From contig NC_057718.1 in NCBI RefSeq assembly GCF_004010195.1, positions 79,788,514 to 79,824,431 of the forward strand: a DNA stretch of 35,918 nucleotides. Direction: 5' to 3'. A program made the position numbers and the translations under genes. Shown in pieces: positions 15,166 to 35,918 of the stretch. The notes beneath the pieces are model-generated. The model searched no databases. It was not told the DNA's origin and saw only the letters and a program-made list of their open reading frames with translations. Position 1 is the stretch's first letter, and every line of letters starts with the position of its first letter. Source of the stretch: Chiloscyllium plagiosum (Eukaryota).

Positions 15166-15409
15166 TATTACCAAATCAGAGATGCTACTTTTGCTTCTAA
15201 CCTGCACTTGGCAAACAAAACAGTCCAGACTTTGTTAAAATTCAGATATATCTCATCTCAGCTATTTAAATGCAGTAGGACTTCAGAAGTCTAACTCGTT
15301 TATGATACGGCTTATAATTTTAATCAAGGTTTGATTAAAAACTGTGAATTTATATATGGTGTCATATTTTGTTATAAAAGTGAAAATGAAAAATGAGATA
15401 TACTCTCTT

Positions 15410-16477: not shown

Positions 16478-16528
16478 AGCATATTAAATTAAGAAAAGAC
16501 AAAGTCATACTGATGTGTGGCACTCGAG
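16478..16528 (+). CDS. Candidate symmetric (phase 1-1) mini-exon C ((E)HIKLRKDKVILMCGTR)
   Basis: T-rich tract with tandem acceptor aag/cag (16472-16477) and good donor GAG|gtatga. Length is 51 or 54 nt, and only one of three frames is open. Confidence 0.42.
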
Positions 16529-17287
16529 GTATGACTGTACATTACTGTAAATCCAGGCTGTGCTGAAAAATAAACATTTGAAGCATATTTGAGGCATTAA
16601 AGGAAATGACAGGATCAATGTTGGACGGCATTCCCTGCTACTAATGAAATCAAGTGGCCCCTTTCCAACTGAGCCATTATGTGGAAGAGCAAATAAACCA
16701 AGGGCAAATGAAAATCCTTGATCAATAATTAGATGTCTCTTCCAGTTTAGAGACTTGAGAACAAATTGACTGCATTATTTGGCAGGCGAGGTGGATCGAC
16801 GTTAATAGGGTCAACATTTGTTTGGATATTAAAAAAAGCTAATATCCAAAGGAAAGTAAATATGATTCCATGGAATTATTTGAGGCCAATCTGAACATTT
16901 GGAAGTGCTTCAGCAATGGTGTATAAGGACAACAGTGTAGCACCGCTGACCATTAGTAGTGCTGAACAGCTAACCAAGACTATATCTGATAAAAACATGC
17001 TGTAGCTCAAGACTAATCGTTGTGATTTGTGAGTTGTCGTTTGTGACTTTGAGTAAGCTGCTACTTCTTATTTCTGTTACATACTACTTCTCTAAGATTT
17101 ATCACAAAATGAAAAAAAAAACAATCCTGCCTCTACAGGAATAAATTATTCACTTTTCACAACAGAAATTCAATTACTATACCATAATATTTAATGATAG
17201 AATAGAAGAACAGATGCTGTGATAGGACAGTATGTTAGAGGTGATTAAGGAACGATCTAGAGTCGCCAATTGGGAACAGGTTCCCTC

Positions 17288-17532
17288 AATGCTGAAAGGA
17301 CAAACAAGGGGAAACTGTTTTGTTCGTTCCCATTTCTCCTTGTGTCTGCGTTTGCTGAATATCTATTACATCTGCAACATTTTCCAGTTCACTGAAAGGT
17401 TATCAACCCTGAAACTTTAACTCTGATTCTCTCCCCATGGATATTATTATCTGACCTACTGAGTGTCTCCAGCATTTTCTATTTTTATTTCAGAATTCCT
17501 GCTGCTGCTGCTGTTGCTGTTGCTGCTGTGGC
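17288..17532 (+). repeat. Direct duplication, copy 2 (245 bp)
   Basis: Near-identical to 15410-15635. Ends in 10 CTG/TTG triplets versus 4 in copy 1. Confidence 0.95.
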
Positions 17533-17934
17533 AAATCACTGTGAGAAAACACCTCAGTAATAAAGTTGACAACTTTTCACAAGTGTGTCATTGTGAGGAC
17601 AGTGTAGGGCCAGACTGAGTGCAAGCTTATGTCAGCTGTGGTGCTATAATTAGAAGGCATAGACTTTGGTCCAGATTTCCAATGACCAGATAGTCATTTC
17701 CACAGCACACATGACAGCTGTTCACAGGGATCCCACAGATTTCTGACATAACAGACTCTGAAGAAATTGCATGGGAATTTGCCGTTATTTATTGCGGCCA
17801 ATCCCCTTATGCCTTCATCTGTCTGAAAGTATTTATTGAAATCGGAGAATTCCAAGGTTTGCTATTAAGCAAATAGTTACAAAAAGTTAAACTATGAACT
17901 ATCTAATCTAACTCCTGAGTAATTATTTAACTGA

Positions 17935-18485
17935 TCCACCAACCAGCCACACACACCCTTGAATACACCTTCCCAGTCTCCAGATCCTTACTCGACACCT
18001 TGCTCTCCACCCCCATGACCAAATATTACCAGCTTTACCCCTGTTGTCGACACACCCCCCTACTTGAATGGCCTGACACAACCCCTCCTATCCAGTAGAC
18101 CCCGCCACCTCTGAGACCCAACTCCCATCCTCCCATCAGTGTCATGTCTAGGACCCAATACCCTTCCTGCCTGTGTACCAAATGCCGCCACTGTAGATCC
18201 TGACAGCCCCACAACCCCCGGGACCTATTATTCCTTCTTCCTCTGCTGGATCTGCTTCCCCATAGACTCATTATATCCTGATACCCCTGAATTACGCTAA
18301 ACACTGCATCACTTCTCTGGCCTTCTTATCACCTTGAGCTCTGGTATCCTACCCACCCAGTGCTCTACCGTCTAGGCACACTACCCACCTGCACTCCACT
18401 AAACTGACATGATACCCCAAACTCACCTGGTATACTACCCTTTCAGCACCTCAACATCATACTTACTTCTTGTACTTACCCGTTC
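17935..18485. repeat. C-rich low-complexity tract
   Basis: Strong C-over-G skew with recurring taccc/accc/cccc runs. Confidence 0.55.
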
Positions 18486-18607
18486 ATAGGAGCTGTGAAA
18501 TTCTGATTCCAGAGTTTTAAATCACAAAATACAGCAACTGACTGTTGGGGATATGGATGCATATTTATTTTTACTCATCTGTTCCGCATTATAAGTGACC
18601 CACCAGA

Positions 18608-20175
18608 ATAGAGTCATAGAGTCCACAGCATAGAGACAGGCCCTTTGGCCTAAACTGGTCCATACCGACCAAAATGTCCATCCAGTCTAAACCCATTTGC
18701 CTGCACTTGGCCCATACACGTTGAGTACTGGCAACATCCTAGTAAATTTCCTCTGCACTCTTTCCAGCTTAATAATATCTTTCCTATAACAAGGTGACCA
18801 AAACTGAACACAATACTCTAAGTGCGGCCTCACTAATGTCCTGTACAACTGCAACATAACTTCCAAACTTCTATACTCAATGACCTGACTGATGAGGGAT
18901 AGTGTGCCAAAAGCCTTCTTCACTGCCCTGTCTACCTGTGACTCCACTTTCAGAGAACCATGTATCTGAACTCCAAGGTCCCTCTGTTCCACTACAATTC
19001 TTAAGGCCCTAACATTCACTATGAAACTCCTACCTTAATTTGACTTTCCAAAATGCAAGACCTTACTTATCTGTATTAAACACTACTTGCCATTTCTCAG
19101 AGCACTTCCCCAGCTGATCAAGGTCCTGTTGCAATTTCTGATAAACTTCGTCAATGTCCACGGTACTGCATATTTTAGTGTTGTCTGCAAACTTACAAAT
19201 CATGTCTTGTATATTCTCATCCAAATCATTGATATAGACAATAAACAGCAATGGGCCCAGCACTGACCCCTGAGGCACACCACTAGCTCACAGGCCTCCA
19301 GTCCGACAAGCATCCTTCCCCTATTACCCTCTGCTTCCAACCATCAATCCAATTTGCCAGTACCCCCTGGATTCCATGTGATCTAACCTTTCAGAGCAGC
19401 CTACCATGTGGAACCTTATCAGAGGCCTTACTGAAATCCATAGAGACTATGTCTACTGCCATGCCCTTGTCAACCTTCCTGGTCACTTCATCAAAGATTC
19501 CTAACAAATTTGAGGCATGATCTCCCATGCACAAAGCCATATTGACTACTCCTAATCAAACCATGTTTTTCCAAATGCATGAATATCTTATCTCTCAGAA
19601 TTTTCTCAAGTAACTTACCTACCACAGAAATTAGGCTTACTGGTCTATAGTTCCCAGGGTTTTCTTTGCAGCCCTTCTTGAATAAGAGCACAACTTTCGC
19701 TACCCTCCAGTTGTCCAGAACCTCACCTGTGAATAGAATAAAATCCCTACAGAGTGGAAACAAGCCCTTTGGCCCAACAAGTCCACACGAACCTTCTGAA
19801 GAGTAACCCAACCAGACCCATTTTCCTAACCTATTATCTTATATTTATCCCTGACCAATGCGCCTAACCTATACTTCCCTGAACATGATGGGTGATTTAG
19901 CATGGCCAATTCACCTCACCTGCATATCTTTGCATTGTGGGAGGAAACCCACGCAGACACAGGGAGAATGTGCAAACTCCACACAGACAGTCGCCCGAGG
20001 CTGAATTCGAACCCAGGTCCCTGATGCTGTGAGGCAGCAATGCTAACCACAGAGCCACCATGGCTAAAGATGACGCAAAAATATCAGCCAGGGCACCTGC
20101 AATTACTTCTCAAGCCTCTTGCTGTGTTCCTGGTTATATCTGGTCAGGACCAGGAGATTTATCCACCTAGTATGG
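18608..20175 (-). mobile_element. 5'-truncated CR1 LINE (most of RT plus tail), interrupted by a SINE
   Basis: ORFs 19491-19811 (PGNYRPVSLISVVGKLLEKI...GFVHGRSCL), 19063-19278 (PQGSVLGPLLFIVYINDL...FADNTK) and 18687-19019 (LVRPHLEYCVQFWSP). A tagagtcatagagtc tail is present. Confidence 0.96.
19732..20062 (-). mobile_element. HE1-type SINE nested in CR1
   Basis: Head, B box GGTTCGAATTC and V-domain lie on the minus strand. The CR1 sequence cacctgtg/gctaaagatg rejoins across it. Confidence 0.92.
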
Positions 20176-20570
20176 TTCCATATTTCTGAAAAAGCGTTAA
20201 TTGGAATTTCCTGTCAGAAATGTGGATTATTTTCTCACAGTATAAAAGGAGTGGAGTGGCAATCTGTATATGATTCCAGCCTTTTGAGTGTTTACAAAAC
20301 TCCTGTGATAGAACTGCCATTGAAAATACAAGTCAATCTTTTCTACTTTAATGAAAATCCCATTCAGGTTTGTTAATTGATTCAATGAAAGTTTTGAACA
20401 TAAATCCACCCAATCCCTCTCCTCTCAAGAAACAAATTTCCAATGGCTAAGTCAATAAACAATAAATTACAAATAAATAATAAAGAAAGTGTAATATTGA
20501 TCTACACAGGCAAATAGGATTCTGGGCTCAATCCCATCCCAGAGCACAAAGGCCATGGTTATTGTCAAAG

Positions 20571-20584
20571 CTACCACCTAGTGG
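20571..20584 (-). promoter_or_regulatory. Candidate CTCF motif
   Basis: The minus strand reads CCACTAGGTGGTAG, one mismatch from the CCACYAGRKGGCAG core, in non-repeat sequence. This is a motif match only. Confidence 0.35.
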
Positions 20585-21087
20585 AGCAATGAGCTTGCAC
20601 ATACAGGAATTATACTATTACTGTCAGATTATGTCCTTGTTCACTCTTGCAAGTGTGCTGGTGGCCACATTAACTTCTGGATGGAGGTGGAGTTCAGCCC
20701 TGTCGCTTAGTCATGCCAATCGGTTCAAAGACCAGACATTCTGGTCTGACGATCTCAGGTCCTGCTCCCTTTTCCTACTGCCTGGAGCTGCAGTTAATTG
20801 CCCAAGCCCGACTGTGAGATCACTGGCATAGGCAAAGGGGCAGGCTTTACAAACTCCAAGTGCAGCCATAGGTTTGAATCTGAAATAACATATTAATCTC
20901 ATTATCTGCTACTTCTAGCTCTATCCTGACCACATCAGCAATAACCAAAATTCCCAGGAGACTCCAAGCAAGCACCATCCGCACTGACAATCCACAGCTG
21001 CAGACAGAATGGTTTCTGAGGCACAAATGATTATGGTTAATATTTTTTCAATTAGAGTCACTTCTCAGTCAATGTCTGTCTGAATCT

Positions 21088-21332
21088 TGGTTTGCACATT
21101 CTCCCTGTGGCTGTGTGGGTTTCCTCCGGGTGCTCCAATTCATCCCACAATTCAAAGATATGCAGGTTAGATGTATTGGCCGTGCTAAATTGCCCATAGT
21201 GTTCAGGAATGTTATGTGCATTAGTCAGGGGTGAATTAGTAGAGGAATGGGTCTGAGTGGGTTACTGTTCGGAGGGTCGGTGTGGACTTGTTGGGCTGAA
21301 GGGCCAGTTTCAAAACTGTAGGGATTCTATGA
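21088..21332 (+). mobile_element. HE1-type SINE, 5'-truncated
   Basis: Starts within the V-domain (tttgcacattctccc) and ends actgtagggattctatga. Confidence 0.9.
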
Positions 21333-22554
21333 ATGAGTGAAGGTGAGAATCTGCTGACTTAGGAATTTTCAAAACATAGACCTTTCACCAGACGCTGGGG
21401 AGACATGAGCCCCAGCCTCTATTCCTGCTCTCCTCTGCCTTGCTGTGCCCAATGATGTCAGCAGCGCAGACACATCCTGCAGGTTGTCACATCAAGCTGA
21501 TATCACAGACTGTATCTGGCCATGTGCAGGGGCCATTTTGACATTTTAGGTAATCATTCCAGGGCACAACCATTCAAAGCACCTCTGGTGCAGCAGAGTA
21601 ATATTAGCCAGAATTTCCAAGCCTAATCTCTATTCAGTAAACAATTAGTGAGGATTGGCTGAGTTGTGATGACCTATCCAGTAAAATGGTTTTCTGAAGT
21701 TCACTCAGGCGGATGTAACCCATTGAAACTGGCATTAATGGTGTGGGTGTTGAGAGGTGCAATGGCCTCAAATTGGGTGAAGGGGGTAGACATCACCTCA
21801 TTCAACAGTCACCCTGCTGACACTTTCACAAATATAACACAGGGTAACTGAAATCCTCTTCCATGCCACAGCAGACCTCTTTTAAAATGAATATTGTGGT
21901 GCCATGACATCGATAGAACCTCAAGTTGCCATGATATGAACGAATGGATCAGACTGCGCACCAGGATATTGATGCTTATAGAAAGTGGGTCTATCAGTCT
22001 TAAACGATTCCTTGATTAAATTATTAAATTATGAATCACACAAAGTTGACATACAGACAAATCTAACAATTGGGAAAATAAATATTATGCGTAATTTACT
22101 GTCCCATCACCAGAGTGGGCTGGGAGGTGGTTAGGGCCGTATGATTTAGAAGGAAGGGCCCGTGAAAATAACATGACCCTTTTGCAATGCCCTCCAAATT
22201 AAATCTGGAATCGAGAAAGTTGAGGTCCTCCCCACCTGTAAGCTGTTTTGGATGTCCAACTCTACTCTTTGGTCCTGGGCTCCCACAGTCCTGTCAGCAG
22301 CCACCACTCCCATCTGGTTCTGTTGAAACTGTACATGTGTCAATCTCTGGTAGACCAGTAGCTTATAGAGGTGGGATGTCTACCTTGCAAGCATCAGGAA
22401 CCCAGATATTGACTAGACAGATGTATGATTAGTTTTTAATTGCAACAGAGCACCTGGAAATAGCTGCAGTGTGGCTGCCACTGGTTCTCCAGATGGTGCA
22501 TGGGCCCACCACCACTATCATTAAATCTAGACCATTATGTTATCCTTTATGACA

Positions 22555-22745
22555 AAAAGATTGGAGTCCAAGAGTAAAAATGTCAGACAGCAACACTATG
22601 TGGCCTTGGTGAGAATAACAACAGGAGTTGGACTCCTTCCCGAAGGAATGATATACTTGTCTTCAAAGATGCCCAACAAATAATCACTAGGCCCTACTTC
22701 CTAAGGTGAGGGGATTGTTCTATGAGCAGCAATTCAGCAGTCTTG
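22555..22745 (+). mobile_element. Very old CR1 fragment
   Basis: Degenerate 'LE.KSK.V..Q.Y.ALVR' and 'GL.YE' codon patterns. Confidence 0.5.
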
Positions 22746-23829
22746 AGAATACATTTATCTTGAGGTGAATGAAATCTGTGCCTCATGAACCAGAATCACT
22801 AAATTATCCATAAGATAACCTTTATTATCCAGGCTCCCTATTTGATACCAACTTAATCCTTCAGTTGCTGCATTTTATACTTGTCAGCTTCACTGGTTGA
22901 CTGACAAACAGAGGATACTTAAATATTTACAGAGGTGTCCTATGAATTCTTAGAACACAATTGATAGCATAGGGATGATGCTACACCATTATATTTGCCT
23001 TCAAAAATTTAACAGAGGAAAACAAACAGGAAAGGACACTGGTACCTAATGAGGTACAAGATACAGTGAGGTGTCAGCTAGAGTTATTAGCTCAATGCAA
23101 AGCTGTCTTTTACTGCATTTTTTGTCAGAAATTTTCAGAAGCTACTTAGACAAGAGAGAGGCAGACAACATAACAGTTTAATGATCTTGCTGCCTTTCTG
23201 GTCTATAACTGCCATCCATTGATATGTACAGAATAATAATCTTTCGCTCAATGTAGCAAATTCAAACAGTTCAATCCATAAATCCTACATTCTTGCTTAT
23301 GATTATAAAGTCCGTGATTATTATTATATATACCTATTATTTTGACAGCCTTACTGTACCTGCTGTAGTGACAGGCAACCTTACTTTATTACTAGAAAAT
23401 AATAAAAAACCTGAGCAGAATTGAAGGAAAAAGAAGTAAACATATCAGTCAGCGTACTCCTCTTGACTAATTGTTCAAAATCTGTCCATAATATTAACAT
23501 TTTCTTTCAATCTAGACATCAACTCCATAATACTCCATTCCAGTCAGTTAGGATCTGCCTGTATACACACTGAATGCCCTAAAAACACCAGTTAAGCAAA
23601 AGCAAGAAAGTCCAGAAAATAAGTTACATTCAATCACCAGGCCAGGGATTCGATTTAATGGCAACTCAGAAGTTTGCCTGGGTGCTCCTCCATTGGTGCA
23701 CATTCAGTGGAGCAGAACTCCTGTCCACCCTCGCCTGAATTCATTGACCCCTAAAAAGTATAAGAACAGGATCATTTTCACAACTACGGTAGGACGTCAG
23801 TAGCTGCAAATTCCCTTCCCAGGAAACAC

Positions 23830-24070
23830 TGGATGACTTGACAGGTGTCATAATTAGATAAATGTAGAAAAGATATTTCTACTTTAGAATGAGTCCAAAG
23901 CTAAAAGGTGTTAAAAAAGGTAGTTACCACATCAATCAAAACTTTGGGAGTAGTCATGCAGAAAATGTTACATTAAATAGTGTTGCAAAAGTCTCAAATA
24001 GAGTGAAAACCTGATATAGACCATGGGTTGATGGTCTGCTTCTGTTGTTATAAGTTTTGTAATCCTGTGT
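23830..24070 (+). mobile_element. Very old CR1 3' fragment
   Basis: Degenerate 'VEKIF.L..ESK' region and a ggtctgcttctgttgttataagttttgtaatcctgtg tail. Confidence 0.5.
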
Positions 24071-24149
24071 GAATGGATTTAGCTAAGAAGCAAGTCATTC
24101 TCCCTCCTCAAAAAGAAACGGTTGTTTGGGGCCTTTTGAAACACTTCAA

Positions 24150-25536
24150 CATAAAGGGTTAACTCTTCAGCATGTGGTTAGGAAGCTGTGTCAATGAGAG
24201 ACCACAGATGACATGATGATGGAAAGACCCTGAAGACAGAAGCAACAGTCCAGACCTAATGTGTAGCCAGAATGTACATAGTTAATCTTAGGAGCCACTG
24301 GAAATGAGCCACACAGCATGGTGGCTAATCATTTTGGGATCATTGGAAGACATGGTCTCCAAGTGCAGTACACTGTTGCACAAATCGACAAGAGCAGCAG
24401 GAGCCACTGCTGGCATCTTTATTTCAGTCTTGATCATGTGACTATTTTGAAACGGTCATGCTTGAATTCAGAAAAAAAATCCTCATTGTAGTAGACTACT
24501 GTTCTCACTGGTGGAAGCAATTACATAGGCTCACTCTGAAGCCATCATTGTCTGCCTAAAAGAGATAGGCATCCTGTACATCATTATATTGGGTAACAAG
24601 CCAAAGTTGCAAGTAAGTTATTAAAGTCCTTTGTGGAATCATATAGGTTTGTTCATATAACAGGCTCGCCAAGGTACCCTCATACCACTGAGAGACTGAA
24701 AAGTACAAACAATCAAAGCTCCATGCCATTGAAAAATGGTTTAACCTCTGTGTAAGCTTCTGAGGGGCTAAAATTGAGGACTCTGTCTTTTTTCACACAC
24801 GCATTGAGGCCAAGTGTCACTGTAGATGATTGTGAATGGTTAACACTACAGCAGGAAGAGTATTGAACAGGCTAGGTCCACATATTTGGCCAATTCAATT
24901 GAGCTTGTTGCCTGCTTGAACTCGAAGCTGAAAAGGGGCTGAGGATCACAAATAAAAAGTCAAGGAAGTGTAGTCATCAAAAAGACACAGCAACCAAGGC
25001 CCACTCCTTTTGAAATAGAGAATGCTATCATTGGATTAAACAGGGGTACATTGATCTAATTGAAAAGAAAACGAAATCGCAGGATGGACTAACAATCCAA
25101 ATATCCAAGAGGAGAATTTTACTAAAGATGTGACATTCGGTGAATGAGAAACCTAAAATGGCAAGTGTGGACTCTGAGAATGTAGATCCTCAACACCTTC
25201 AATGTGATCAGGAAATCGGTGTAACCACCACCCTTTGAAACAATGGCTTTTCGGGAGATGCAGGACATATATATCGTAAAGAGACAATACCATGGGGGAA
25301 ATGTAAAGAGTTAACTCTTAAAATATATAAGGAAGCTCTGTCAATGAAAATACTGATCAAATGTTGATGGCGAGACCATAATGAAACAACTAACAGGCTA
25401 GACCTCATGCTTAGCCAGAATATACATAGCTAATATGATGGAAGCAAAGATTTACTTTCAAAAGTCTTCTGATTCATAACATCTCTTTCAAAGGGTTGTG
25501 TATCCCATATATCCTCTAATACTCCACATGACAACA
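24150..25536 (+). mobile_element. Old Gypsy/Ty3 LTR retrotransposon remnant: LTR piece, integrase, PPT, LTR
   Basis: Frameshifted translation gives WW...LEDMVSKC..C.NRQEQQEPLL, LIVVDY (from 24482), FVHITGSPRYP and PLKNGL...KLRT. Purine tract gggggaaa (25294-25301) is followed by TGTAAAGAGTTAA. 24150-24290 is a degenerate copy of 25302-25440. The LTR 3' end (..acaaca 25536) is tentative. Confidence 0.78.
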
Positions 25537-25582
25537 GTAGATTTAGGCCAATCAGATGATGCCTCATAAGAAAGTACAAGGG

Positions 25583-26826
25583 TAGAGTCATAGAGTCATA
25601 CAGCATAGAAACAGATTTTGGTCCAATCAGTCCACGCCTACCTTATTCCCAAACTAAACTAGTTCCACCTGCCTGTGCTTGACCCATATCCCTTCAAGCA
25701 TATATTATTCAAGAACTTATCCAAATGTCTTTTAAATATTGTAACTACACTTGTATCCACCACTTTATCTGGCAGTTCATTCCACACACGAGCCATTCTC
25801 CGTGCAAAAAGGTTGTTCTTCCTGTCCTTTTTAAAGCTTTGCCCACTCACTTTGAAAATATGCCACTTTATTTTGAACTCTCCCACCCTAGTGAAAGACC
25901 CTTGTCATTCACCTTATCTAGGCCCCTCATGATTTTATAAATCTCAATAATCCTGTGCTCCAGTGAAAAAAGTCCCAGGCTAGCACGGTGGCTCAGTGGT
26001 TAGCACTGCTGTCTCACAGTGCTAAGGACGTGGGTTTAATTCCAGCCTCGGGTGACTGTCTGTGTGGAGTTTGCACATTCTCTTCTTCTCTGCGTGGATC
26101 TCCTCTGGGTGCTCTGGTTTCCTCCCATAATCCAAAAGACATGCAGGTTAGGTGAACTGCCATGCTAAATCGTGTTCAGGGATGTGTTAGCTAGTGAGTC
26201 CCGTACTAGTTAGGGGTAAATGTAGGGTAGGGGAATGTTCTAGGTGGGATACTCTTCAGAGGCTAGGTGTGGAGTTGTTAGGCCAAATAGCCTGTCTCTG
26301 CACTGTAGGGAATTCTATGATTCTTTCCCATCTATCTACATATGTCAAAACTTCATTCCCGGCAACATCCTTGAAAATCTTTTCCAAACCCTCTCAAGTT
26401 TAGTAATATCCTTCCTACAACTGGGAAACCAAAACTGCACACAGTACCCCACAAGAGGCTTCACCAACATCCTGTACAACTTTAACATGATCTCCCAACT
26501 CCTAAACTCAAAGGTCTGAGTAATGAAGGCAAGTGTGCCAAACATCTTCTTAACCGTCCTGACTACCCATGATGTAAATTTTAAAGAATTATGTACCCAA
26601 ACCTTTAGTTCTCTCTGTTCTACAACACTCTCAGGGCCTTACCATTAAATTGTGAAGATCCTGTCCTTATCTGTATTACCAAATGCCATACCTCACATTT
26701 ATCGATATTAAACTCCATTTGCCACTCCTCAGCCTATTCACCCAATTGGCTTTGTAACCTTAGGTAATCTTCTTCCTGAGCATTATACCATCAAATTTGG
26801 TGTCATCTGCAAACTTATTAACCATG
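25583..26826 (-). mobile_element. 5'-truncated CR1 LINE, interrupted by a SINE
   Basis: tagagtcatagagtcatacag tail. ORFs 25659-25886 (VWNELPDKVV) and 26345-26545 (YCVQFWFPS..KDITKLERV), with FADD near 26810. Confidence 0.94.
25977..26323 (+). mobile_element. HE1-type SINE nested in CR1, opposite orientation
   Basis: GCACGGTGGCTCAGTGGTTAGC head, V-domain, and gggaattctatgattct tail. Confidence 0.92.
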
Positions 26827-26983
26827 CTGTAACCAGGTAAGGTTCTTAAATGTATGAAACAGGACCAGAGAAAATCACCCACATCAACAATTATTTCAGA
26901 TAAAGAAAGGCTGCCGAGAACAAAACAGCTTGAACTCTAATTCATTTCCTGATTCCTGCCATAGTTGGCTGATATCCCTACCG

Positions 26984-28428
26984 CTTCCTTCAGAACAAAG
27001 GGGTACCCATGGGCACCCCATTAGTCTCAGCTATGTCTGCCTTTTCTTCTGGTACGTGTAATAGTCCATCTTCAGTAGTTACATTGGCATCATTCCCCAC
27101 CGTTTCCTCAGCTACATTGATGACTGTATCAGCACCACCTCCTGCTCTCACGAGGAGGATGGATAGTTCATCAACTTTACGAACACCTTAAACCCTGGCC
27201 TCAAGTTTACCTGGACCATCTCCCCTTCCTGGAGCTCTCCATCTTCATTTTTGGCAACCAACTCAACATGGGCATCTACTGCAAACCCAATTACTCTCAC
27301 AGCTACCTTGACTACAGCTCCACCCACCCCGCCTCTTGTATCCCATACTCCAATTCCTCCGCCTCTGCCACATCTGTTCCCAGGAGAAGCAATTCTACTC
27401 GAGAACATCCCAGATGGCATCCTACTTCAAGGACCACAACTTCCCCTCCCATGTGGTCAACAATGCCCTCCAGTGCATCTCCTCCACCCTTGAACCCCAC
27501 CCCTCCAACCGCAACAAGGATAGAGCCCCCGGGTCCTTACTCTCCATCCCACCAATCTCCGGATACAATGCAACATCCCCTGTCATTTCCTCCACCTATA
27601 GGCAGACCCCACCACCAAAAGTATATTTCTTTCCCCATCTTATCAGAATTCTGCAGAGACCATTCCCTCCGCAACTCCCTTGTTAGGTCCACGCCCCCCA
27701 CGAACCCACCCTCCACTCCCAGCACCTTCCCTTGCTGCCTGCATCCATACCTCCGCTCTCACCTCCATCCAAGGCCCCAAAGGATCCTATCACATCTGGC
27801 AGAGATTTTCCTGCATATCCCAACACCTCATCTACTGTGTCCGTGCTCTCAAAGTGGTCTCCTCGACATTGGGGAGACAGGACGCCAAATTGCGAACATC
27901 TCTGGGACACACACCCCAAATAACCCCACCTCCCTGTGGTTGACCACTTCAACTCCCCCTCCTACTCCACCAAGGACATGCAAGTTGTGGGCCCCCTCCA
28001 TTGCCAAATCCTAGTCACCTGATGCCTGGAGGAAGAATGCCTTACGTTCCGCTTTGGGACCCTTCAACCACATGGCATCAACATCGACTTCACTAGTTTC
28101 CTAATCTTCCCCCCTCCCCACCTTATGCCAGATCCAACCCTCCAACTTGATCCACCCTCTTGGCTTGTCCTACCTATCCATGTTCCTTCCCAACTATCTG
28201 CTCCACCCTCTGGTCCGACCTAGCATCATCACCCCTACCCGCATCCACCTATTGCCTTCAAAGCTACGGTCCACCCAGCTCCACTCCCTCCTATTTATCT
28301 GTCAGCCTCTTTGGGCTCCCCCCACATTCCTGATGAAGGGTTATGCCCAAAACATCAATTCTCCTGCTCCTCGGATGCTGCTTGACCCTCTGTGCTTTTC
28401 CAGCACCACACTTTTTGACACTGATATC
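26984..28428 (+). mobile_element. Penelope-like retroelement, 5'-truncated and frameshifted (RT C-terminal part, GIY-YIG endonuclease, 3' end)
   Basis: KGVPMGTP (~27000), YIDD (27113-27124), LKFTWTI, IYCKPNYSHSYLDYSSTHP and QFLRLCHICS motifs. GIY-YIG region LIYCVR...DIGETGR (27830-27885) and C-terminal GTLQPHGINIDF. A decayed hammerhead core lies at ~28330-28356. Confidence 0.93.
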
Positions 28429-28519
28429 CCTACTCTCCATCCATGAAATGAGCCACAATTTTATTGTTGCTGCTCTACCTGTTGGACATTTCCAGCACTT
28501 TTTAGAAAAGGTTTCAGAT

Positions 28520-28885
28520 TTACATTACCTGCAGTATTTTACTTTTGTAGATGTGGAGAAAATATTTCCACTTGTGACAGATCCCAAAATTAAAAACCAC
28601 AAGTACAAGAAAGTTACTAATAAATTCAACAGGGAAATAAGAAGAAATTACTTTCATTAGTAATTAGTCTCTACCATAGGAATTAGTTGAGGAAAATATC
28701 TCAGAGGCTTTCAAAAGGAAACTAAACAAGTATATGGGTGAAAATGGGATAAGCAATACTAAGTTATGTAGAGAGGCTGTGATGAGATAAATAAAGAGAT
28801 AAATAGACTTGTGCAGAGTATAAACCCAGCACTGAAATTTTGGGCTGAATGACCTATTTCTGTGCTGTGTATTCTATGTGGTTCT
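28520..28885 (+). mobile_element. Old CR1 3' fragment
   Basis: VDVEKIFPLV...HKYKKVTNKFNREIRRNYF motif, and a gggctgaatgacctatttctgtgctgt..ttctatg tail. Confidence 0.8.
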
Positions 28886-29362
28886 ATTTATTTTGTAGGT
28901 TATGGGAAAAGAGTAGAGGAACAAGACTAACTGGACAGATTTTCGCAAAGTGCTGTCATGGATGCAGTAAGCTAAATAGCAGCCTCCTGCACTATGAGAG
29001 TCAAGGAGCTACAAAGATTTTCACTTTGTCTAAATAATGCAATACGAATGGATTGACAGTAATTACACCCTACAGGAATGTCACATTTCAACACATGAAC
29101 TGACAGCCTTAGCCAAGTGATTTGGAGAGGTGATGAGTTGCTTTTCCAACAATGAGGCACATGCGTAGAATCAGAGGTAACGGTATTACAGCTGAATAAA
29201 GGCATCTACAGAGGCATGAGGGAGAAGCTGGGTAAAACTGACTGGGAAAGGAGCCTAGCAGGAAAAACAGTGGAACAAGAATGGCAAGAGTTTCTAGGAG
29301 TAATTCAGGAGACAGCAGAGATTCATCCCGATGAAAAGGAAGCATGGTACAAGGAGAATGAG

Positions 29363-29466
29363 CTGAAAATGTGTTGCTGGAAAAGCGCAACAGGTCAGGC
29401 AGCATCCAAGGAGCGGGAGAATCGACATTTCGGGCATGAGCCCTTCTTCAGGAATTTCCAGCTTTC
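29363..29466 (-). mobile_element. 104-bp Penelope end-fragment inserted in CR1 with a 13-bp TSD
   Basis: CAAGGAGAATGAG occurs at 29350-29362 and 29467-29479. The insert matches the Penelope 3' end at 28330-28420 in reverse. Confidence 0.9.
29424..29451 (-). ncRNA. Minimal hammerhead ribozyme motif
   Basis: CUGAAGA-A-GGGC-UCAU-GCCC-GAAA-UGUC, with both conserved core boxes and a perfect 4-bp helix II. Activity is not demonstrated. Confidence 0.65.
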
Positions 29467-30837
29467 CAAGGAGAATGAGGCAACCATGGCTGACTAGTGA
29501 AATCAGGGATGGTATAAAAACAAAAGAGAAAGCAGATAATGTGGTGAAGGACAGTGGGAAACCAGAGGACTGGGAAGCTTACAAAGACCAACAGATGGCA
29601 ACAAACAAAGAAATAAGGAGGGAGATTAAATATGATGGTAAGCTAGCCAGTAATATAAAGAAAGACTGTAAATGTTTTTTAAGATACATAAAGGGCAAAA
29701 GAGAGGCAAAAGTGGACATTGGGCCGTTGAAAAATTATGCTGGAGAGATAGTAGTGGGGAACAAGGAAATGGCTGAGGAACTGAACAATGACTTTCCGTC
29801 AGTCTTCATGGTGGAAGATACAAACGTTCAAGAGGGTGAGGGGGCAGAGCTGAGATTGGTGGTCACCACCAAGGAGAAGGTGCTAGAAAAACAGAATGGC
29901 CTGATGGTGGATAAATCACCTAGACTAGATGGACTACACCCCAGAATTCTAAGGGAGATTGCTGAAGACAAAGTGGAGGTGTTAATTGTGATCTTTCAGG
30001 AATAACTAGAATCAGAGAGGATCCCAGAGGACTGGAAAATCGCTAACGTGACACCCCTGTTTAAAATAGGAGGAAGACAAAAGATGGAAAATTACAGACC
30101 AATTAGCCTAACCTCGGGTGTGGGCAAGATCCTGGAATCCACTGTGAAAGATGAGATTTCTGAATATTTGGAAGTGTGTGGTAAAATAGGGCAAAGTCAG
30201 CATGGTTTCATCAAGAAGAGATCATGCCTGATAAATCTGCTAGAATTCTTTGAGGTAGTAATGAGCAGGTTAGACCAAGGTGAGCCAATGGATGTTGTCA
30301 ACCTGGTCTTCAAGAAGGCCTTTGACAAGGTGCTGCACAGGAGGCTACTGAGTAAGAAAAGGGCCCATGGTGTCAGAGTAAAGGCACCAACATGAATAGA
30401 AGCTTGGCTGTCTGGCAGGAAGCAGAGAGTGGGGATAAAAGGATCCTTCCCAGGATGGCAGCTGGTGACAAGTGGTGTTCTGCAAGGCTCAGTGTGGGGA
30501 CCACAACTTTTCACTTTATGCATTAATGATCGAGGTGAAGAGACTGAAGGCACTCTGGCTAAGTTTGCAGATGAAACAAAGATAGATCGAGGGACAGGTA
30601 GCATTGAAGAGGCGGGGAGGCTGCAGAAGGATCTGGACATGCTAGGAGAGTGGGCAAAGAGGTAGCAGATGGAGTACAACGTGGGAAAGTGTGAGGTCAT
30701 GCACTTTGAAGGAAGAATAGAGGCATGGACTATTTTCAAAATGTGAAGAAAATTCTGAAGTCTGACGTGTAAAGAGACTTCGGAATTCTACTCCAGGATT
30801 CTCTCAAGGTAAACTTGCAAGTTGAGTCAGTAGTTAG

Positions 30838-31592
30838 TGTTACAACACAGAGTTAAACCCTTCTGTTAATTAAATCAAACACCCAGAAAAGCTCACCTCA
30901 CCATAATCTGTTAAAATATGAGTGACAGAGAATTCCCAAATTCCACTATTAAAGAAAAAATATTAATTTATTCTTTAACTCTAAAAGTGAACATTAAACA
31001 ACAACTATTTATAACTCTAAGCCCCCTTTCTCTTAACTGCTTATTATCTGCCTCCAACTCTAACAACATATGGTTCCAGTTTAAAAAAGGTTATTAAAAT
31101 TACATCAACTTAATTTCAAAACCACACAGTGGCTGTCATCACTGGTGTCCTTCCTCTTTAGGCTGAAGATCTCTCTCTGGGTCGTTTCTGTCTTCTCATG
31201 TTTCATATGAGAAAGGTATCTTTGATACAGAGTGTTTTAAAGGGCTGTCTCTCTCCAGATGACAGTTCATTCTCTGTCTAACTTTCAAAATGTCTGCTTC
31301 TTTATACCGGAAACACTTGATTGTCTCATTGGTTTGAGGTTGGCAAAAACAATAAATTCAAACTTGATTGGGTTTTAGTATCCTGGGGCATAGTTTAAAC
31401 TGATTGGTTAGATTTGAATTGTTGTCAAAACAACTCAGGTATCTATTTCACAGGCAAATGTTACATATTGTCAATTTTCCAGTACATGCTGAGACTGGTA
31501 GCTAGTCATATAACAGGTGCTTGTAAGCTCTCAGTGTAAAACAGCATTCACTCTGTCTTAAAGGTACAGTATATGCCTTCAACTTCATAACA
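30838..31592 (-). mobile_element. Solo LTR, 755 bp, with 4-bp TSD
   Basis: TGTTA...TAACA termini with TTAG at 30834-30837 and 31593-31596, splitting CR1 sequence cleanly. The minus strand carries three CCAAT (31328-31407), TATAAA (31301-31306) and AATAAA (30967-30972) in U3-R-U5 order. Confidence 0.92.
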
Positions 31593-32449
31593 TTAGGAAG
31601 GCAAGAGAAATTATTCCATTTATATTGAGAGGACTTGGATATAAAAGCAGGGATATGCTTCTGAGGCTCTATAAAGCTCTGGTCAGGCCACATTTGGAGT
31701 ATTGTGCTCAGTTTTGGGCCCCATTTCTCAGGAAGATGTACTGGCCCTTGAGTGTGTTCAAAATAGGGTCATGAGAATGGTCTCAGGAATGAAAAGCTTA
31801 ACATATGAGGAATGTTTGAGGAGCCTAGGTCATACCCGATAGAGTTTAGAAGGATGAGGAGGAATCTAATTGAAACTTGCAGAATACTGAATGGCCTGGA
31901 CAGAGTGGAAGTTGGGAGGATGTTTCCATTGGTAAGAAAGACTAGGACTCGAGGGCACAACCTTAGAGTAAAGGGAAGACCTTTCAGAATAGACATAAGG
32001 AGAAACTTCTTCAGTCAGAGAATGATGAATCTATGAGATTCACTGCCACAGAAGACTGTGGAGACCAGGTCATTGAGTATAATTAAGATTGAGATAGATA
32101 GGTTCTTGATTGTCAAGGGGATCAAGCGTTATAGGGAGAAGGCGGGAGAATAGGGATGAGAAACTTATCAGCCATGAATGAATGGCAGAACAGACTTGAT
32201 GGGCCAAATGGCCTAATTTCTGCTCCTAGGTCTTATGGTGCAAGAAGTCATACCTTAGAATAAGGATCACTCTTGCTCATGGCAAGAACCCGCATGTGTA
32301 ATCTTTCAACATAGGGAAGCTGCAGTTACCTCACGGTTCCAGCTCATCTAGAAATTACTCTGCTCTTATCACTGCAGCAGGAATATCAGAAGGATTAATA
32401 GATTGATAGTCAATCTGTCTTGACTGCAATATGACACATCTTCCATAGG

Positions 32450-32527
32450 CATCAAGTCGTGAGGTGGGACTTGAACCCACTGCTTTTGGTGCAGAGATAG
32501 GCCCACTGCCATCTGCCACAAGACCTT
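32450..32527 (-). mobile_element. tRNA-derived SINE head fragment
   Basis: The minus strand has a TGGCAGATGGCAGTGG A-box-like sequence and a GGGTTCAAGTCCC B-box. Confidence 0.6.
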
Positions 32528-32544
32528 CTCATATAATGAGGAAG

Positions 32545-32895
32545 TAAAGAGAGATTTAATTGAGGAGTATAAGTGATATTCTTGACCATGTTTAAAAGAC
32601 TTGATAGAGTAGGTAGGGAGAAACTGTTTCTTCTGGTGTGGCAATTAAGGTCAAAGAGAATAAGCTTCAAATTAAAGCTAGGGTATTCAGTAAAGATATC
32701 ATGAAACATTTCTTCTACAATTATTGGAAATCTGTATCTCCCATTGCCAAAAAGCTGTTGAGGCTAAATCAAAGATATCAATACTGAGATTGATAAGTAA
32801 GGGTTTTCAAGAACAGTAAACAAAGGTGACAAAATGGAGCTGAAACACAGCAGGAGCTCGAGAGGCTGAGGACCAGCATTGATGAGTATTCTATG
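32545..32895 (+). mobile_element. Old CR1 3' fragment
   Basis: Degenerate RDLIEEYK and DRVGREKLFLLV motifs, with an attctatg tail. Confidence 0.7.
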
Positions 32896-33428
32896 AGCCT
32901 AGATTACGCAATAAGAGATGGAATTGCCAATTAAATAACAATCAACCATTTAAAAAAAACCCTGAAAAAGTGTATGGAACCTTCCTGTTTTCAAATAAAT
33001 TTAGTATATTGTTTAAAACATGGAGAATATTTAACTTTAAAATTGAAAGATATTTTCATACATTTGACTGCAGAATTCTGCTAAGGATATTCATATATGA
33101 TTTATTAAAACACAAACACACAGCAAGTGTAACCTCATTACTGTAACTGTCAGCTGCTGACAGATTTAATCTTGTTGCCAAGTACCACTGAAGAATGTTT
33201 TGATTAAAACTGTTATAATTGCACAATGACATTAAGCAAGATTTTTAAGGGCCGTATTTTCTTCTGTACATTGAATTTGGGAAAGTAGATGCAGCCATTA
33301 GTAAAGAAATGAATAGAAAGTAGTAATGGGCTTTGGTACTGCCTTCTTGTGTCTTCTATTAAAAAATACCTTACAGAAGTAAACTTTTCCAAACACATGA
33401 CTGTTGGCCATTTCTTAGTTTTGTTTTG

Positions 33429-33614
33429 TGTTGCCATAGTCTTATCAGACCATAGAGCTGATCACTCATTCGAGAGAGGGAGATGACTGGTGGTGATTTA
33501 ACCTCAGGCAAGGGGAGAGGTTGAAAAGGAGAGTCTTTCATGGCAACCTCAACTGGTGATGGGAATTGAACCCATACTATTAGCATACCAACCGTGCAGG
33601 CAACTGAGCTAAAC
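33429..33614 (-). mobile_element. Second SINE family, copy 3
   Basis: The reverse complement aligns by eye with 8612-8838 (GGGTTCAATTCCC B box, ttcaacctctcccct, gactatggcaac end). Confidence 0.82.
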
Positions 33615-33639
33615 TGTTTCCCATTCCTTAGTGTAAAAG

Positions 33640-33840
33640 AGGAAGTACAATAAGAACAGTAAATGGCATCGGGGTGACAAAGGAATGGAATGGGGACTTC
33701 AGATACAGATAGGCTGAAGTAGGAGTGCAGGAAGGATTATGTAATGGAGGTGGAGTTTGTGATGGATTCTGGCCTTGGAAACTCAGCTCAAGTTAAAACA
33801 AGAATACTGAGGTTGCAAGAACAAAGTGGTTTAAGTCCAG
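33640..33840 (-). mobile_element. Old L2 fragment
   Basis: Degenerate homology to 1420-1590 (ggtgacaaaggaatgga..ttcag, tgaggttgc). Confidence 0.45.
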
Positions 33841-33899
33841 GTAATTTTTGTATATTAAAGTTAGTTTATTTGCTCTGCGCAAAAATATTACTATTATAC

Positions 33900-34945
33900 G
33901 GATCAATATGAGCAGCAGGTTCTGATTGTAGTTCAGTGTTCTCTTTTTCTCTCACCTTTTCTATCTCTGTCACCTTGAATCATGGTCAAAGGGCATAAGG
34001 AAAATTTGGCAGCTGTGTGTAATCTCCCTCCATCAAGTGTTCTAATGGATTAAAACCATTCAGCTGTGGTGTAGACTGGTAACTTGACTGAGCTAAAATA
34101 ACAATATCATTCTTCTGTAACAAGGATTTGACAGTGCAGGTCCATATTTTAGGCTCTCCATTGGCTTGTGGGTACTTAGGCAATCTAGTGATGTGGAGAA
34201 AGCCATAGGTGTCAGTGAAGCAATTGATGCAATCATTGGCAACAAGAGAACTGTTGTCAGAGATAACTAAGTCAAGAAAGCCCAGTGTAACATAAATTTC
34301 CTGGAGCATTCCAGTATCCAACTGAGGTGGAGCTGTGCAGTCATTTAATGTTGTTCCACTGAGAACAATAATCCTTGAACATAAAATCTATCTCAAGGGT
34401 GTTTCTAAGGTCAAGATGGGAATGAAGATGTGATCAGTGATTCTTTTGGATCTTGCATATCGATGGCACAAGTAACACAATTGGAAATCATGTCTTTGAA
34501 TAGCTTTTCAGGTTCCTGGACATCAAGGTGAATTGTGGGCCCTGGTCTAGCACTTGGTTACACCCAGGTGCCTCTTATAGAAGAACTGCACAGGTTCTAG
34601 CCTATGGCTCTTGGAATAATGATTCTTTTCTTGTAGACCAATAAGTCATTAAGGAGGCTGCGGTACGATGCTGTTCAAAGTACTGTTTTAAGAATACAAT
34701 TGCTAAGAGCTTACATTGGCCATTCTATAACACAACGTTTCCACGTTTGTACACTTGGTGTCAGATTTTTGAGCTGCTTGAATTTCCTCTAGACTCTGGG
34801 TGATTGCTGGTAATTAAGGAATCAAGGATCTTCAAATCCTCAAGAAAAATGCATTTTGTGTTAAGTAGGCTTCTCACAAGAATGCAAGACAATGCATCTG
34901 CAATGGTTTACTGTTTATCTTGGATATGCTCTGTGAAGAACTACA
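33900..34945 (-). mobile_element. Gypsy/Ty3 pol remnant (RNase H end plus integrase)
   Basis: ORF 33986-34321 reads LVISDN...YGFLHITRLPKYPQANGE...TVKSLLQK...STPQLNGFNP. Upstream are HLGVTKC and NCVTC (zinc-binding region) and IADALS (~34890). The RNaseH-then-integrase order is the Gypsy arrangement. Confidence 0.9.
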
Positions 34946-35401
34946 ACTTGTGCCACATACGTTTAAAGTACATACAGCAAAGTTTGTTTTCACTGGCACC
35001 TTATGAACCAGCACTCTTGATAAAAATCCGGCAAAATTTATGCACCTAAAATATCTGATGTTTACTGTATTATCACCATCTCTGCAATGTCAAAGTAGTC
35101 AGTTAAGGGTGCAAATGAGAAGGGTCTCTGCTGGTAAGCTTTATTCAAGGCAAAGTTGCATCTTTTTTAAGTGATTTATTCTGTAAATAAAGTATAACAG
35201 TGATGTGTGCACCTCCTGCATTATGTTTCCATTATTTAATGTTTGTTTTTACACTGAAAATGTGGACCTCTTCCTCAACTGGAATATTTGATCAAATGGC
35301 ACACTCCTGGTGCAATAGCTGGTAGTTAATAATAGGTTTGCTGTACTCAGGGTGGCACCTTCGTGAATTTTTTACTGTCAAGTAGGGTGAATAATTAGTT
35401 T

Positions 35402-35713
35402 GGGCGGCACGGTGGCACAGTGGTTAGCACTGCTGCCTCACAGCGCCAGAGACCCGGTTCAATTCCCACCTCAGGCTGTGTGGAGTTTACACGTTCTCCC
35501 GTGTCTGCGTGGGTTTCCTCCGGGTGCTCCGGTTTCCTCTCACAGTCCAAAGATGTGCAGGTCAGGTGAATTGGCCATGCTAAATTGCCCGTAGTGTTAG
35601 GTATAGGGGTAAATGTAGGGGTATGGGTGGATTGCGCTTCGGCAGGTCGGTGTGGACTTGTTGGGCCGAAGGGCCTGTTTCCACACTGTAAGTAATCTAA
35701 TCTAATCTAATCT
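35402..35713 (+). mobile_element. HE1-type SINE, full length, young subfamily
   Basis: Close reverse-complement match to 78-396, including the short body variant and (TAATC)n tail. Confidence 0.94.
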
Positions 35714-35771
35714 TATGGCTTGCCTGAATAGTAAACCTGAGGCCTAGAATGTAATTTGATACATTTTTACA

Positions 35772-35918
35772 GGTTCTGGATTAGTGGTGCTGGAAGAGCA
35801 CAGCAGTTCAGGCAGCATCCAAGGGGCAGCGAAATCGACGTTTCGGGCAAAAGCCCTTCATCAGGAATAAAGGCAGTGAACCTGAAGCGTGGAGAGATAA
35901 GCTAGAGGAGGGTGGGGG
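35772..35918 (-). mobile_element. Penelope-like element 3' end, running off the window
   Basis: gtggtgctggaagagcacagcag..ggcagcatcc..tcgacgtttcgggc, homologous to 28330-28420 in reverse. CpGs are retained. Confidence 0.88.
35837..35864 (-). ncRNA. Minimal hammerhead ribozyme motif, best-preserved copy
   Basis: CUGAUGA-A-GGGC-UUUU-GCCC-GAAA-CGUC, with an intact core, perfect helix II, palindromic ACGU helix III region and GUC triplet. Confidence 0.72.

What the first reader, a model, noticed from the sequence alone, without database searches (positions are those of the whole stretch)
35837..35864. Intact minimal hammerhead ribozyme core in a young Penelope end; the window holds a decay series of these motifs
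Seen: the minus strand reads CUGAUGA A GGGC UUUU GCCC GAAA C GUC. Related motifs occur at 29424-29451 (-), 28330-28356 (+, GAAA mutated to AAAA) and 1886-1920 (-), with relics at ~15510-15540 and ~17388-17420. The helix II loop varies (UUUU, UCAU, UUAU) while the stem is largely kept. Established: Penelope-like elements encode minimal type I hammerheads whose short palindromic helix III is thought to work as a dimer, and an extra base after A9 is tolerated in some natural hammerheads. Inference: these abundant repeats scatter self-cleaving RNA motifs through this genome at roughly one per several kb. The three motifs with intact cores here are all on the minus strand, antisense to the candidate + strand host gene, while the + strand copies are broken. 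This fits selection against sense-strand cleavage, but the sample is tiny.
Basis: partly seen in the sequence, partly recalled or inferred. Interest (0 to 1): 0.72.

Follow-up and report, generated by a model that had tools for sequence, protein, structure and literature searches.

The report
Penelope hammerhead in shark parkin intron
The small self-cutting-RNA motif is really there, but it is one of tens of thousands of ordinary end-pieces of a Penelope-type jumping gene, it faces the same way as its host gene parkin rather than away from it, and it is likely idle because it would need a partner copy and is predicted to pair with a mirror-image twin 2.6 kb away.

Summary
The motif at 35837-35864(-) is exactly as described: a minimal type I hammerhead. 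The 28-mer occurs 18,175 times genome-wide; with free loop and N7, 87,227 times. It is the 3' end of a Neptune-type Penelope element: 12 of 12 top RT loci carry it downstream. Helices I, II and III covary across seven local families. The class is published (PMC4209133). The window lies in a 73-kb intron of parkin, transcribed on the MINUS strand, so the better-kept copies are sense and the broken ones antisense. In 1.67 Mb of oriented introns fully intact copies are 25 sense:28 antisense; the mild antisense excess of single insertions (92:131) is the same with or without a core (p=0.86) and like CR1-type LINE ends. Only one window copy is fully intact. It has a 94/97-identical inverted twin beyond the window. 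No cleavage footprint in copy ends or RNA reads. The scan reported this class before on other shark DNA. Ordinary.

The parts
35837..35864 (-). Minimal type I hammerhead core, family A: CUGAUGA, extra A, helix II GGGC/GCCC with UUUU loop, GAAA, loop-less ACGU palindrome, GUC triplet; predicted scissile bond between 35837 and 35836. Sense to parkin pre-mRNA.
   Evidence: orientation
35833..35868 (-). Core plus helix I strands AUUC (35868-35865) and GAUU (35836-35833): C-G, U-A, U.U mismatch, A-U; the weakest helix I among the local families
35770..35918 (-). 3' end (pseudo-LTR piece) of a family A Penelope-like element: pyrimidine-rich 3' untranslated stretch, hammerhead, about 65 nt downstream; runs off the window into a 2,512-nt N run. 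Its inverted twin lies at window-equivalent 38431-38560 (+) and alone carries the 32-nt tail extension.
   Evidence: 94 of 97 identical
29360..29458 (-). Family B end stub inserted in a CR1-type LINE; core 29424-29451 with boxes and helix II intact, C15.2>U (CpG-type change). Sense to parkin.
26960..28428 (+). Decayed Penelope body (RT, thumb and GIY-YIG remnants in broken frames) ending in a family B hammerhead 28330-28356 with GAAA>AAAA and ACAU. Antisense to parkin. Left boundary approximate.
   Evidence: peptides match the family A/B ORFs by eye; no Pfam match
1822..1926 (-). Family E end stub; boxes CUGAUGA and GAAA kept at 1892-1920, G10.1-C11.1 pair and helix III palindrome lost. Sense to parkin.
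2640..2775 (.).
15517..15614 (+). Family D relic, core not recoverable; first copy of a local 1.88-kb-spaced duplication
17395..17494 (+). Family D relic, second copy of the same duplication
1..35918 (-). Host context: the whole window lies inside one 72.8-kb intron of parkin (PRKN; intron 6 by human numbering, recalled), between the exon at C9:79854506-79854621 and the RING1 exon at C9:79781525-79781661

Best explanation
The motif is the minimal type I hammerhead carried at the 3' end of a very abundant Neptune-type Penelope-like retrotransposon, left as one arm of an inverted insertion in a parkin intron, sense to the pre-mRNA, where it is likely a passive and non-cleaving passenger. Shown: the motif, its copy number, its place downstream of RT, Zn-finger and GIY-YIG remnants in longer copies, helix covariation between families, the host gene and strand, the inverted twin. 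Inferred from published work: with no loop in helix III it would cut only as a dimer through the ACGU palindrome, slowly, and perhaps only when bound by the element's protein; selection kept the fold in the transposing master elements, not in dispersed copies, which decay neutrally (mostly at CpG). Predicted: in parkin pre-mRNA the antisense twin is made first and would pair with the sense arm over about 97 nt, hiding the core. The hairpin layout is likely the normal product of Penelope insertion, not a safety device.
For: Motif and copy number. 12 of the top 12 loci of an RT search (one is the query's own; 151 matches scored) have a family A end 0.5-1.4 kb downstream on the same strand; CX4CXXC linker in 8 and the IYCIRC..LLYIGET motif in 2 of the 12; Atlas first hit 0.95 to RT-domain clusters with HTH_animal/RVT_1; weak GIY-YIG match, E 0.023, below cut-off. 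Family consensuses from non-seed copies keep helix II (GGGC/GCCC, GGAGC/GCUCC, GAGUC/GACUC, GGGUC/GACCU) and swap ACGU for AGCU in family E; in 102 strict hits helix I, which was not required, pairs in 91 (first pair; C-G, U-A, U-G, A-U) and 94 (second; U-A, A-U, C-G). No core-specific strand bias; core mismatches 25/680 sense versus 22/700 antisense. 137 of 360 insertion events are inverted pairs, a layout described for PLEs with the tail on one arm only (PMC8557442 passages). Active-like dimer -10.3 kcal/mol against -27.3 for the free dimer and -194 for the arm duplex. Low or protein-dependent activity of such motifs in vitro (PMC4209133; PMC11167929). No pile-up of read ends in 1,222 RNA reads.
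Against: Single insertions are 41% sense (92:131, p=0.011), different from the SINE control (96:77, p=0.006), so a small cost of sense insertion is not excluded. No cleavage assay was run. The RNA test is weak: poly(A) single-cell reads, only 31 of 1,222 at 99% or more alike, one of two raw-read runs gave 0 reads. The 2,512 nt between the arms are N, so the pair is inferred from its ends. Folding energies ignore the tertiary core. Pfam did not recognise the RT fragments (0 of 6; 0 for the 394-aa piece), so the clade call rests on motifs.
Confidence: 0.85

Rival explanations
1. One reading: intact cores are purged from the sense strand of introns because they cut host pre-mRNA, so intact copies are antisense and sense copies are broken.
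For: All single insertions 92 sense:131 antisense, p=0.011; discordant inverted pairs lean the same way, 17 sense-only:24 antisense-only, p=0.35. Retrozymes are reported depleted in Xenopus introns (bioRxiv 10.64898/2026.07.22.740005, passages; strand not examined there).
Against: In this window the orientation is the reverse of the claim. Fully intact copies 25:28 (CI 0.33-0.61 sense), fully intact singles 10:9; intact versus rest p=0.77-0.86. Copies that start downstream of the core are at least as antisense (21:35) as copies that cover it (159:191). CR1-type LINE ends without a ribozyme are 68:84. Seven sense copies with core and helix II stand between parkin exons 4 and 7.
Confidence: 0.07
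2. The ribozyme is active in the element's own cycle: dimer or protein-assisted cleavage followed by ligation gives circular RNA, and reverse transcription across the sealed junction leaves copies that show no cut. This concerns the master elements and is compatible with the best explanation for this copy.
For: Helices are kept by compensatory change across seven families, so the fold is under selection somewhere. The circle model is proposed in PMC4209133. It would explain why copy ends avoid the cleavage site.
Against: Hammerhead mutants did not affect insertion in vitro and unprocessed RNA was the main template for an anole Poseidon element (PMC11167929). Naiad and most Chlamys elements spread without the motif (PMC8557442 passages). 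No direct sign of circles was sought here.
Confidence: 0.3
3. The motif is a chance or degenerate look-alike that no longer works even in the master element, because helix I has only two stacked pairs before a U.U mismatch.
For: Helix I pattern C-G, U-A, U.U, A-U in families A, B; monomer fold is no better than shuffles (z -0.71) and pairs the CUGAU box with GUCG; no Rfam hit.
Against: All core letters, the extra base, G10.1-C11.1 and the palindrome are majority states in A and B while loop II and N7 vary between subfamilies; a B subfamily restores a perfect AUUC/GAAU helix I; a 2-bp helix I is described for Drosophila virilis Penelope (PMC4209133).
Confidence: 0.15
4. This particular copy has been domesticated as an intronic regulator of parkin, like the conserved amniote intronic hammerheads.
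For: Sense orientation in a very long intron and an intact core; domesticated intronic hammerheads exist in amniotes (PMC6155905 passages).
Against: It is identical to 18,174 other copies, young, lacks a monomer-competent helix III, and has a near-perfect antisense twin in the same transcript. Conservation at the orthologous site could not be tested (no relatives held).
Confidence: 0.02

Closest known systems
Minimal hammerheads (min-HHR) in the pLTRs of metazoan Penelope-like elements (Cervera and de la Pena 2014, PMC4209133; parts 1-2 of 4 read, supplements not seen)
   Same: CUGANGA and GAAA boxes, unpaired base between 9 and 10.1, G10.1-C11.1, palindromic 15.2/16.2 with no loop 3, short helix I, mostly single dispersed copies from truncated elements, several covarying families per genome.
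   Different: Helix II is 4 bp (7-8 bp in the Schistosoma families); helix I is 2 bp, a mismatch, then 1 bp. Copy number is about ten times the largest vertebrate figure in that paper (87,227 for one pattern here against about 9,000 in Xenopus tropicalis). Sharks are not named in the parts read.
Neptune clade of endonuclease-positive Penelope-like elements (PMC8557442, passages)
   Same: RT, then CX2-5CXXC linker, then GIY-YIG with two cysteines between the motifs; 5' truncation, adjacent inverted copy, 30-40 nt tail on one end, hammerhead in the terminal repeat.
   Different: No intact full-length ORF was recovered and no tree was built; clade assignment is by motif order. Local family F is Poseidon-like by its endonuclease motif (label from recall).
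PAc hammerhead of the anole Poseidon element (Frangieh et al. 2024, PMC11167929; passages and second part of the main text)
   Same: Minimal core at the pLTR/ORF junction, copies ending about 65-110 nt downstream of the cut site, no RNA-seq reads ending at the cut site.
   Different: Other clade; there the ORF starts at helix II, here the AUG inside the core opens only 17 codons (read from the sequence). Protein-assisted cleavage was shown there and is untested here.
Non-LTR retrozymes (bioRxiv 10.64898/2026.07.22.740005, part 1 of 5 and passages)
   Same: Type I hammerhead derived from PLE terminal repeats, found in a chondrichthyan genome among others.
   Different: Retrozymes are head-to-tail tandem arrays with a ribozyme in each unit; this copy is one arm of an inverted pair.

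Membership tests
PLE minimal type I hammerhead | Core boxes CUGANGA and GAAA with a UH cleavage triplet | tested here: met
   CUGAUGA, GAAA, GUC
PLE minimal type I hammerhead | Extra nucleotide between 9 and 10.1 and a G10.1-C11.1 pair | tested here: met
   A, then G-C; A in 92 and U in 7 of 102 strict hits
PLE minimal type I hammerhead | Palindromic, loop-less helix III | tested here: met
   ACGU; family E has AGCU; CG 57, GC 11, CpG-type TG/CA 30, other 4 of 102
PLE minimal type I hammerhead | Helix II supported by covariation | tested here: met
   Invariant inside A/B, compensatory between families, also in non-seed copies; family models were seeded on paired copies, so some lean remains
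PLE minimal type I hammerhead | Helix I of 4-5 bp | tested here: inconclusive
   2 bp, U.U, 1 bp in this copy; first two pairs covary across families
PLE minimal type I hammerhead | Lies in the terminal repeat of a Penelope-like element | tested here: met
   12 of 12 top RT loci end in this family; for this copy the upstream part is N
PLE minimal type I hammerhead | Self-cleavage as a dimer | not testable with these tools
   No assay; no end pile-up in poly(A) reads, a weak test
Neptune-clade PLE | RT followed by C-terminal GIY-YIG with internal cysteines | tested here: met
   YIDD, GVAMGT, IYCIRC..LLYIGET in order; Pfam GIY-YIG only E 0.023, under cut-off
Neptune-clade PLE | CX2-5CXXC linker between RT and endonuclease | tested here: met
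   CHRRNCKTC-type motif in 8 of 12 loci
Neptune-clade PLE | RT phylogeny places it with Neptune | not tested
   No reference PLE proteins held; no tree built
Neptune-clade PLE | Inverted 5'-truncated copy and one-sided tail | tested here: met
   Twin arm with tail on one side only; 137 of 360 events are inverted pairs
Canonical type I hammerhead (Rfam models) | Scores against an Rfam hammerhead model; 6-bp helix I with loop contacts | tested here: not met
   No hammerhead among 6 matches at E up to 10; helix I too short
Non-LTR retrozyme | Head-to-tail tandem units, each with a complete hammerhead | tested here: not met
   Nearest same-family copy is inverted; next sense cores are 4-6 kb away and of family B
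Domesticated intronic hammerhead | Conserved at the orthologous site across species | not testable with these tools
   No related genomes held

The most novel reading that the evidence does not exclude
In giant shark introns, separate sense copies inside one nascent transcript (five with intact boxes within 16 kb of parkin intron 6: 29424, 35837, 39875, 43265, 45559) pair through their ACGU palindromes, or are folded by the element's protein in the germline, and cut host pre-mRNA at a low rate; with about 10^5 intact cores this would be a genome-wide, ribozyme-based load on long genes, seen as the 41% sense fraction of single insertions and partly masked by the inverted-pair layout.
Probability: 0.07. 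Interest if true: 0.72.

Novelty: new member of a known kind. Interest (0 to 1): 0.2.

Why it matters
As it stands it matters little: the class has been in print since 2014 and the scan has met it many times. Two by-products are of some use. The genome holds at least 87,227 intact-looking cores of two sister families and seven covarying families, a large natural mutagenesis set for asking what Penelope hammerheads are for, which the papers read leave open. And the first oriented count found here (no such count turned up in searches) shows that sense copies with intact cores are tolerated in introns, which argues that lone minimal hammerheads do not cut pre-mRNA much. If the novel case held, transposon-borne ribozymes would be a new kind of load on long genes.

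Tried and rejected
Rfam scan of the window: no hammerhead model matched. Monomer folding gave no support (z -0.71 and -0.89). A plus-strand host gene: none of 16 longer ORFs had a meaningful Pfam match and a candidate exon at 10914-11057 matched nothing in Pfam or PDB; a nested plus-strand or non-coding gene is not excluded, and splice joints across the window were not examined with RNA reads. Short recalled motifs failed to find the exon 6-like exon; a length-and-phase scan found it among 8 candidates. An IBR search did not show parkin's later exons, so the 92 kb left of the RING1 exon (31 hits, 17:14) were dropped from the main counts; with them the totals are 247:301. The 6:26 skew of family C is one tandem array in one stretch and vanished on collapsing to events. 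Cleavage footprint in copy ends: 1 of 197 A/B copies (85% identity or more) ends within 2 nt of the cut site; 6 of 197 begin at positions 37-38, which looked like an excess, but on inspection they were largely fold-back, tandem or poor-edge junctions, and genome-wide 41 of the first 100 of 837 junction matches sat at the cut site against 40 of the first 100 of 467 at a control offset 5 nt downstream (counted by hand): rejected. Sequencing-run search: no RNA holder listed. Pfam missed the RT fragments and PDB gave nothing for them. The paper on dimer cleavage of PLE hammerheads (Lunse et al.) is known here only as a reference-list entry in PMC6765202. Supplements of PMC4209133 and of the 2026 preprint were not seen and may list shark motifs.

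Full report
Observation. The minus strand from 35864 to 35837 reads CUGAUGA A GGGC UUUU GCCC GAAA CG UC, with AUUC before and GAUU after. A strict two-strand scan (both boxes, a UH triplet, helix II of 4 bp or more) finds this site and 29424-29451 only; 200 Markov shuffles give a mean of 0.195 and 3 of 200 reach 2. The exact 28-mer occurs 9,017 times forward and 9,158 times reverse in the 3.56-Gb genome, the reversed control never. Freeing N7 and the 4-nt loop gives 87,227 matches, one per 41 kb. Rfam has no model that catches it. They belong to four families, so they are not one decay series.

What carries it. Longer copies continue upstream through a pyrimidine-rich stretch into a broken ORF. 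A search with one natural RT fragment scored 151 matches; all 12 loci fetched (one the query's own) end in a family A hammerhead on the same strand, 8 show a CHRRNCKTC-type linker and 2 an unbroken IYCIRC..LLYIGET motif. That order (RT, CX2-5CXXC, GIY-YIG with internal cysteines) is the one given for Neptune elements in PMC8557442 (passages). The Atlas places a 394-aa piece with RT-domain clusters (0.95; HTH_animal 94%, RVT_1 23%); Pfam itself missed the RT pieces and gave GIY-YIG only at E 0.023. The labels shark, V-SINE/HE1-like and CR1-like are from recall and from earlier scan notes on this genome.

The insertion. The window ends at a 2,512-nt N run. Directly beyond it, at window-equivalent 38433-38460 (+), stands a mirror copy, 94 of 97 letters identical; only that arm carries the further 32-nt tail. 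An inverted truncated copy and a one-sided 30-40 nt tail are described features of PLE insertions (PMC8557442). In my intron sample 137 of 360 events are such inverted pairs, 96 with a gap of 30 nt or less.

The host gene. A splice-signal scan of 235 kb around the window turned up a minus-strand exon 6.9 kb to the left that is the parkin RING1 exon: Pfam PF17978 E 1e-21, PDB parkin E 1e-23, AG and GT flanks. RING0 exons lie on the minus strand 88 kb and 199 kb to the right, and a 116-nt exon ending ..NLITPNRQNIPCITCTET, like the stretch before RING1 in the PDB chain, starts 30 kb to the right. The window is therefore inside one 72.8-kb parkin intron read on the minus strand. The motifs at 35837, 29424 and 1892 are sense; the broken ones at 28330, 2686, 15517 and 17395 are antisense. 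A nested plus-strand gene is not excluded, but none was found.

Strand test. Gene spans were oriented by same-strand Pfam exon hits and 1.77 Mb fetched. Seven family profiles gave 548 hits. One 92-kb stretch not bracketed by exons (31 hits) was dropped, leaving 517 hits in 1,674,076 bases and 23 stretches: 230 sense, 287 antisense (p=0.014). Fully intact copies are 25:28, copies with boxes and helix II 42:55, the rest 188:232 (Fisher p=0.77 and 0.82). As events, single insertions are 92:131 (p=0.011), with core 18:24, fully intact 10:9, without core 74:107 (p=0.86); in inverted pairs with one good arm the sense arm is the good one in 17 and the antisense arm in 24 (p=0.35). Hits that start after the core are 21:35, hits that cover it 159:191. 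Controls: CR1-type LINE 3' ends 68:84, LINE RT 11:14, SINE 96:77; Penelope singles do not differ from the LINE ends (p=0.52) but do from the SINE (p=0.006). Mismatches in ten core positions are 25 of 680 in sense and 22 of 700 in antisense A/B copies. The sample excludes a strong effect, not a small one (CI 0.33-0.61 for fully intact copies), the spans are not annotated genes, and since every copy was probably intact when it inserted, the intact-versus-broken contrast tests later selection better than selection at insertion.

Structure. Between families it does: GGGC/GCCC, GGGU/ACCU, GGGUC/GACCU, GGAGC/GCUCC, GUUACC/GGUGAC, GAGUC/GACUC, also when only non-seed copies are used (one weak column in F). 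Helix III is ACGU, or AGCU in family E. Helix I, not required by the scan, pairs at the first position in 91 and the second in 94 of 102 strict hits, with several pair types each. The fold is thus real and kept in the master elements. In this copy helix I is C-G, U-A, U.U, A-U. The monomer folds no better than shuffles and pairs CUGAU with GUCG; the active-like dimer scores -10.3 kcal/mol against -27.3 for the free dimer and -194 for the duplex with the twin arm, which the polymerase would make first. These are secondary-structure estimates.

Signs of cleavage. One of 197 well-kept A/B copies ends at the cut site; most run 60 nt or more past it. 5' ends at the cut site are no commoner than at a control offset (41 of 100 listed against 40 of 100, counted by hand). 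In one poly(A) single-cell run 1,222 reads lay on the motif from both directions with no place where many begin or end; only 31 were 99% alike, and a second run gave none, so this is a weak, family-level test. Cleavage followed by circularisation would also leave no footprint.

Known work. PMC4209133 (parts 1-2 of 4 read) defines this motif class, including the extra base, G10.1-C11.1 and the palindrome, reports no monomer activity and low dimer activity for a Schistosoma example, and counts about 4,000 in coelacanth and 9,000 in Xenopus. PMC11167929 (passages and half the main text) shows protein-assisted cleavage that is not needed for insertion in vitro. The 2026 preprint (part 1 of 5 and passages) includes one chondrichthyan and reports intron depletion of retrozymes in Xenopus, with no occurrence of 'antisense', 'orientation' or 'shark'. 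PMC6765202 and PMC6155905 were seen as passages. Searches listed no paper on shark Penelope hammerheads or on their intron strand; one search was seen as a listing only. Eight earlier scan notes, two on this genome, reach the same reading on other DNA; I saw them after the tests above and they are not independent support.

Verdict. A real, ordinary member of a known class, notable only for its copy number; the proposed antisense bias is reversed in this window and not core-specific in 1.67 Mb of introns. Interest 0.2.

Noticed in passing
family A and B copies genome-wide; window 35865-35872: 5' ends of copies crowd at the 5' edge of the ribozyme, not at the cut site: 23 of 36 family A (one bounded by N) and 34 of 63 family B copies share 13 nt or less upstream of C3 with any other copy; 2,978 genome matches have foreign letters 7-9 nt upstream of the core, roughly a third of family A after a rough correction, sibling subfamilies included. 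Could mark a transcription start or an RT stop, and would explain why ribozyme stubs far outnumber ORFs.
   Followed up: partly
G000:C9:79781525-80023818 (-): Parkin exons 4-7 (human numbering, recalled) span 242 kb; introns of about 111, 57 and 73 kb. Later exons were not located.
   Followed up: partly
window-equivalent 29424-45586 (window and L011-L012): Five sense copies with intact boxes within 16 kb of parkin intron 6 (29424, 35837, 39875, 43265, 45559), two fully intact, plus antisense copies at 38433 and 39081.
   Followed up: partly
intron sample, family B subfamily with loop CUGU: A near-identical subfamily has GAAU after the cut site and so a perfect 4-bp helix I (6 of 103 strict hits); it would be the natural positive control for the U.U form found here.
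   Followed up: no
intron sample, family F: Family F has U as the extra base, a 6-bp helix II and a VVYKIPC..HYIGQT endonuclease without the Zn-finger linker: a second, Poseidon-like lineage (label recalled) in the same genome.
   Followed up: partly
one stretch of the C10 laminin-G gene (L151-L160): An array of about 49-nt tandem units of the family C end, mostly without the core, all on one strand; satellite- or retrozyme-like.
   Followed up: no
window 15404-15641 and 17282-17520: Local direct duplication, 95-97% identical, 1.88 kb apart, holding the two family D relics and a CTG run of different length.
   Followed up: no
window 76-399 (-) and 35399-35714 (+): Two 95-100% complementary tRNA-type SINE copies at the two ends of the window, in opposite orientation.
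   Followed up: no
window 29109-30780 (+): A CR1-type LINE fragment interrupted by the 29360-29458 Penelope stub.
   Followed up: no
intron sample, SINE control: The SINE is 96 sense:77 antisense while Penelope singles and LINE ends lean antisense; unexplained, small sample.
   Followed up: no
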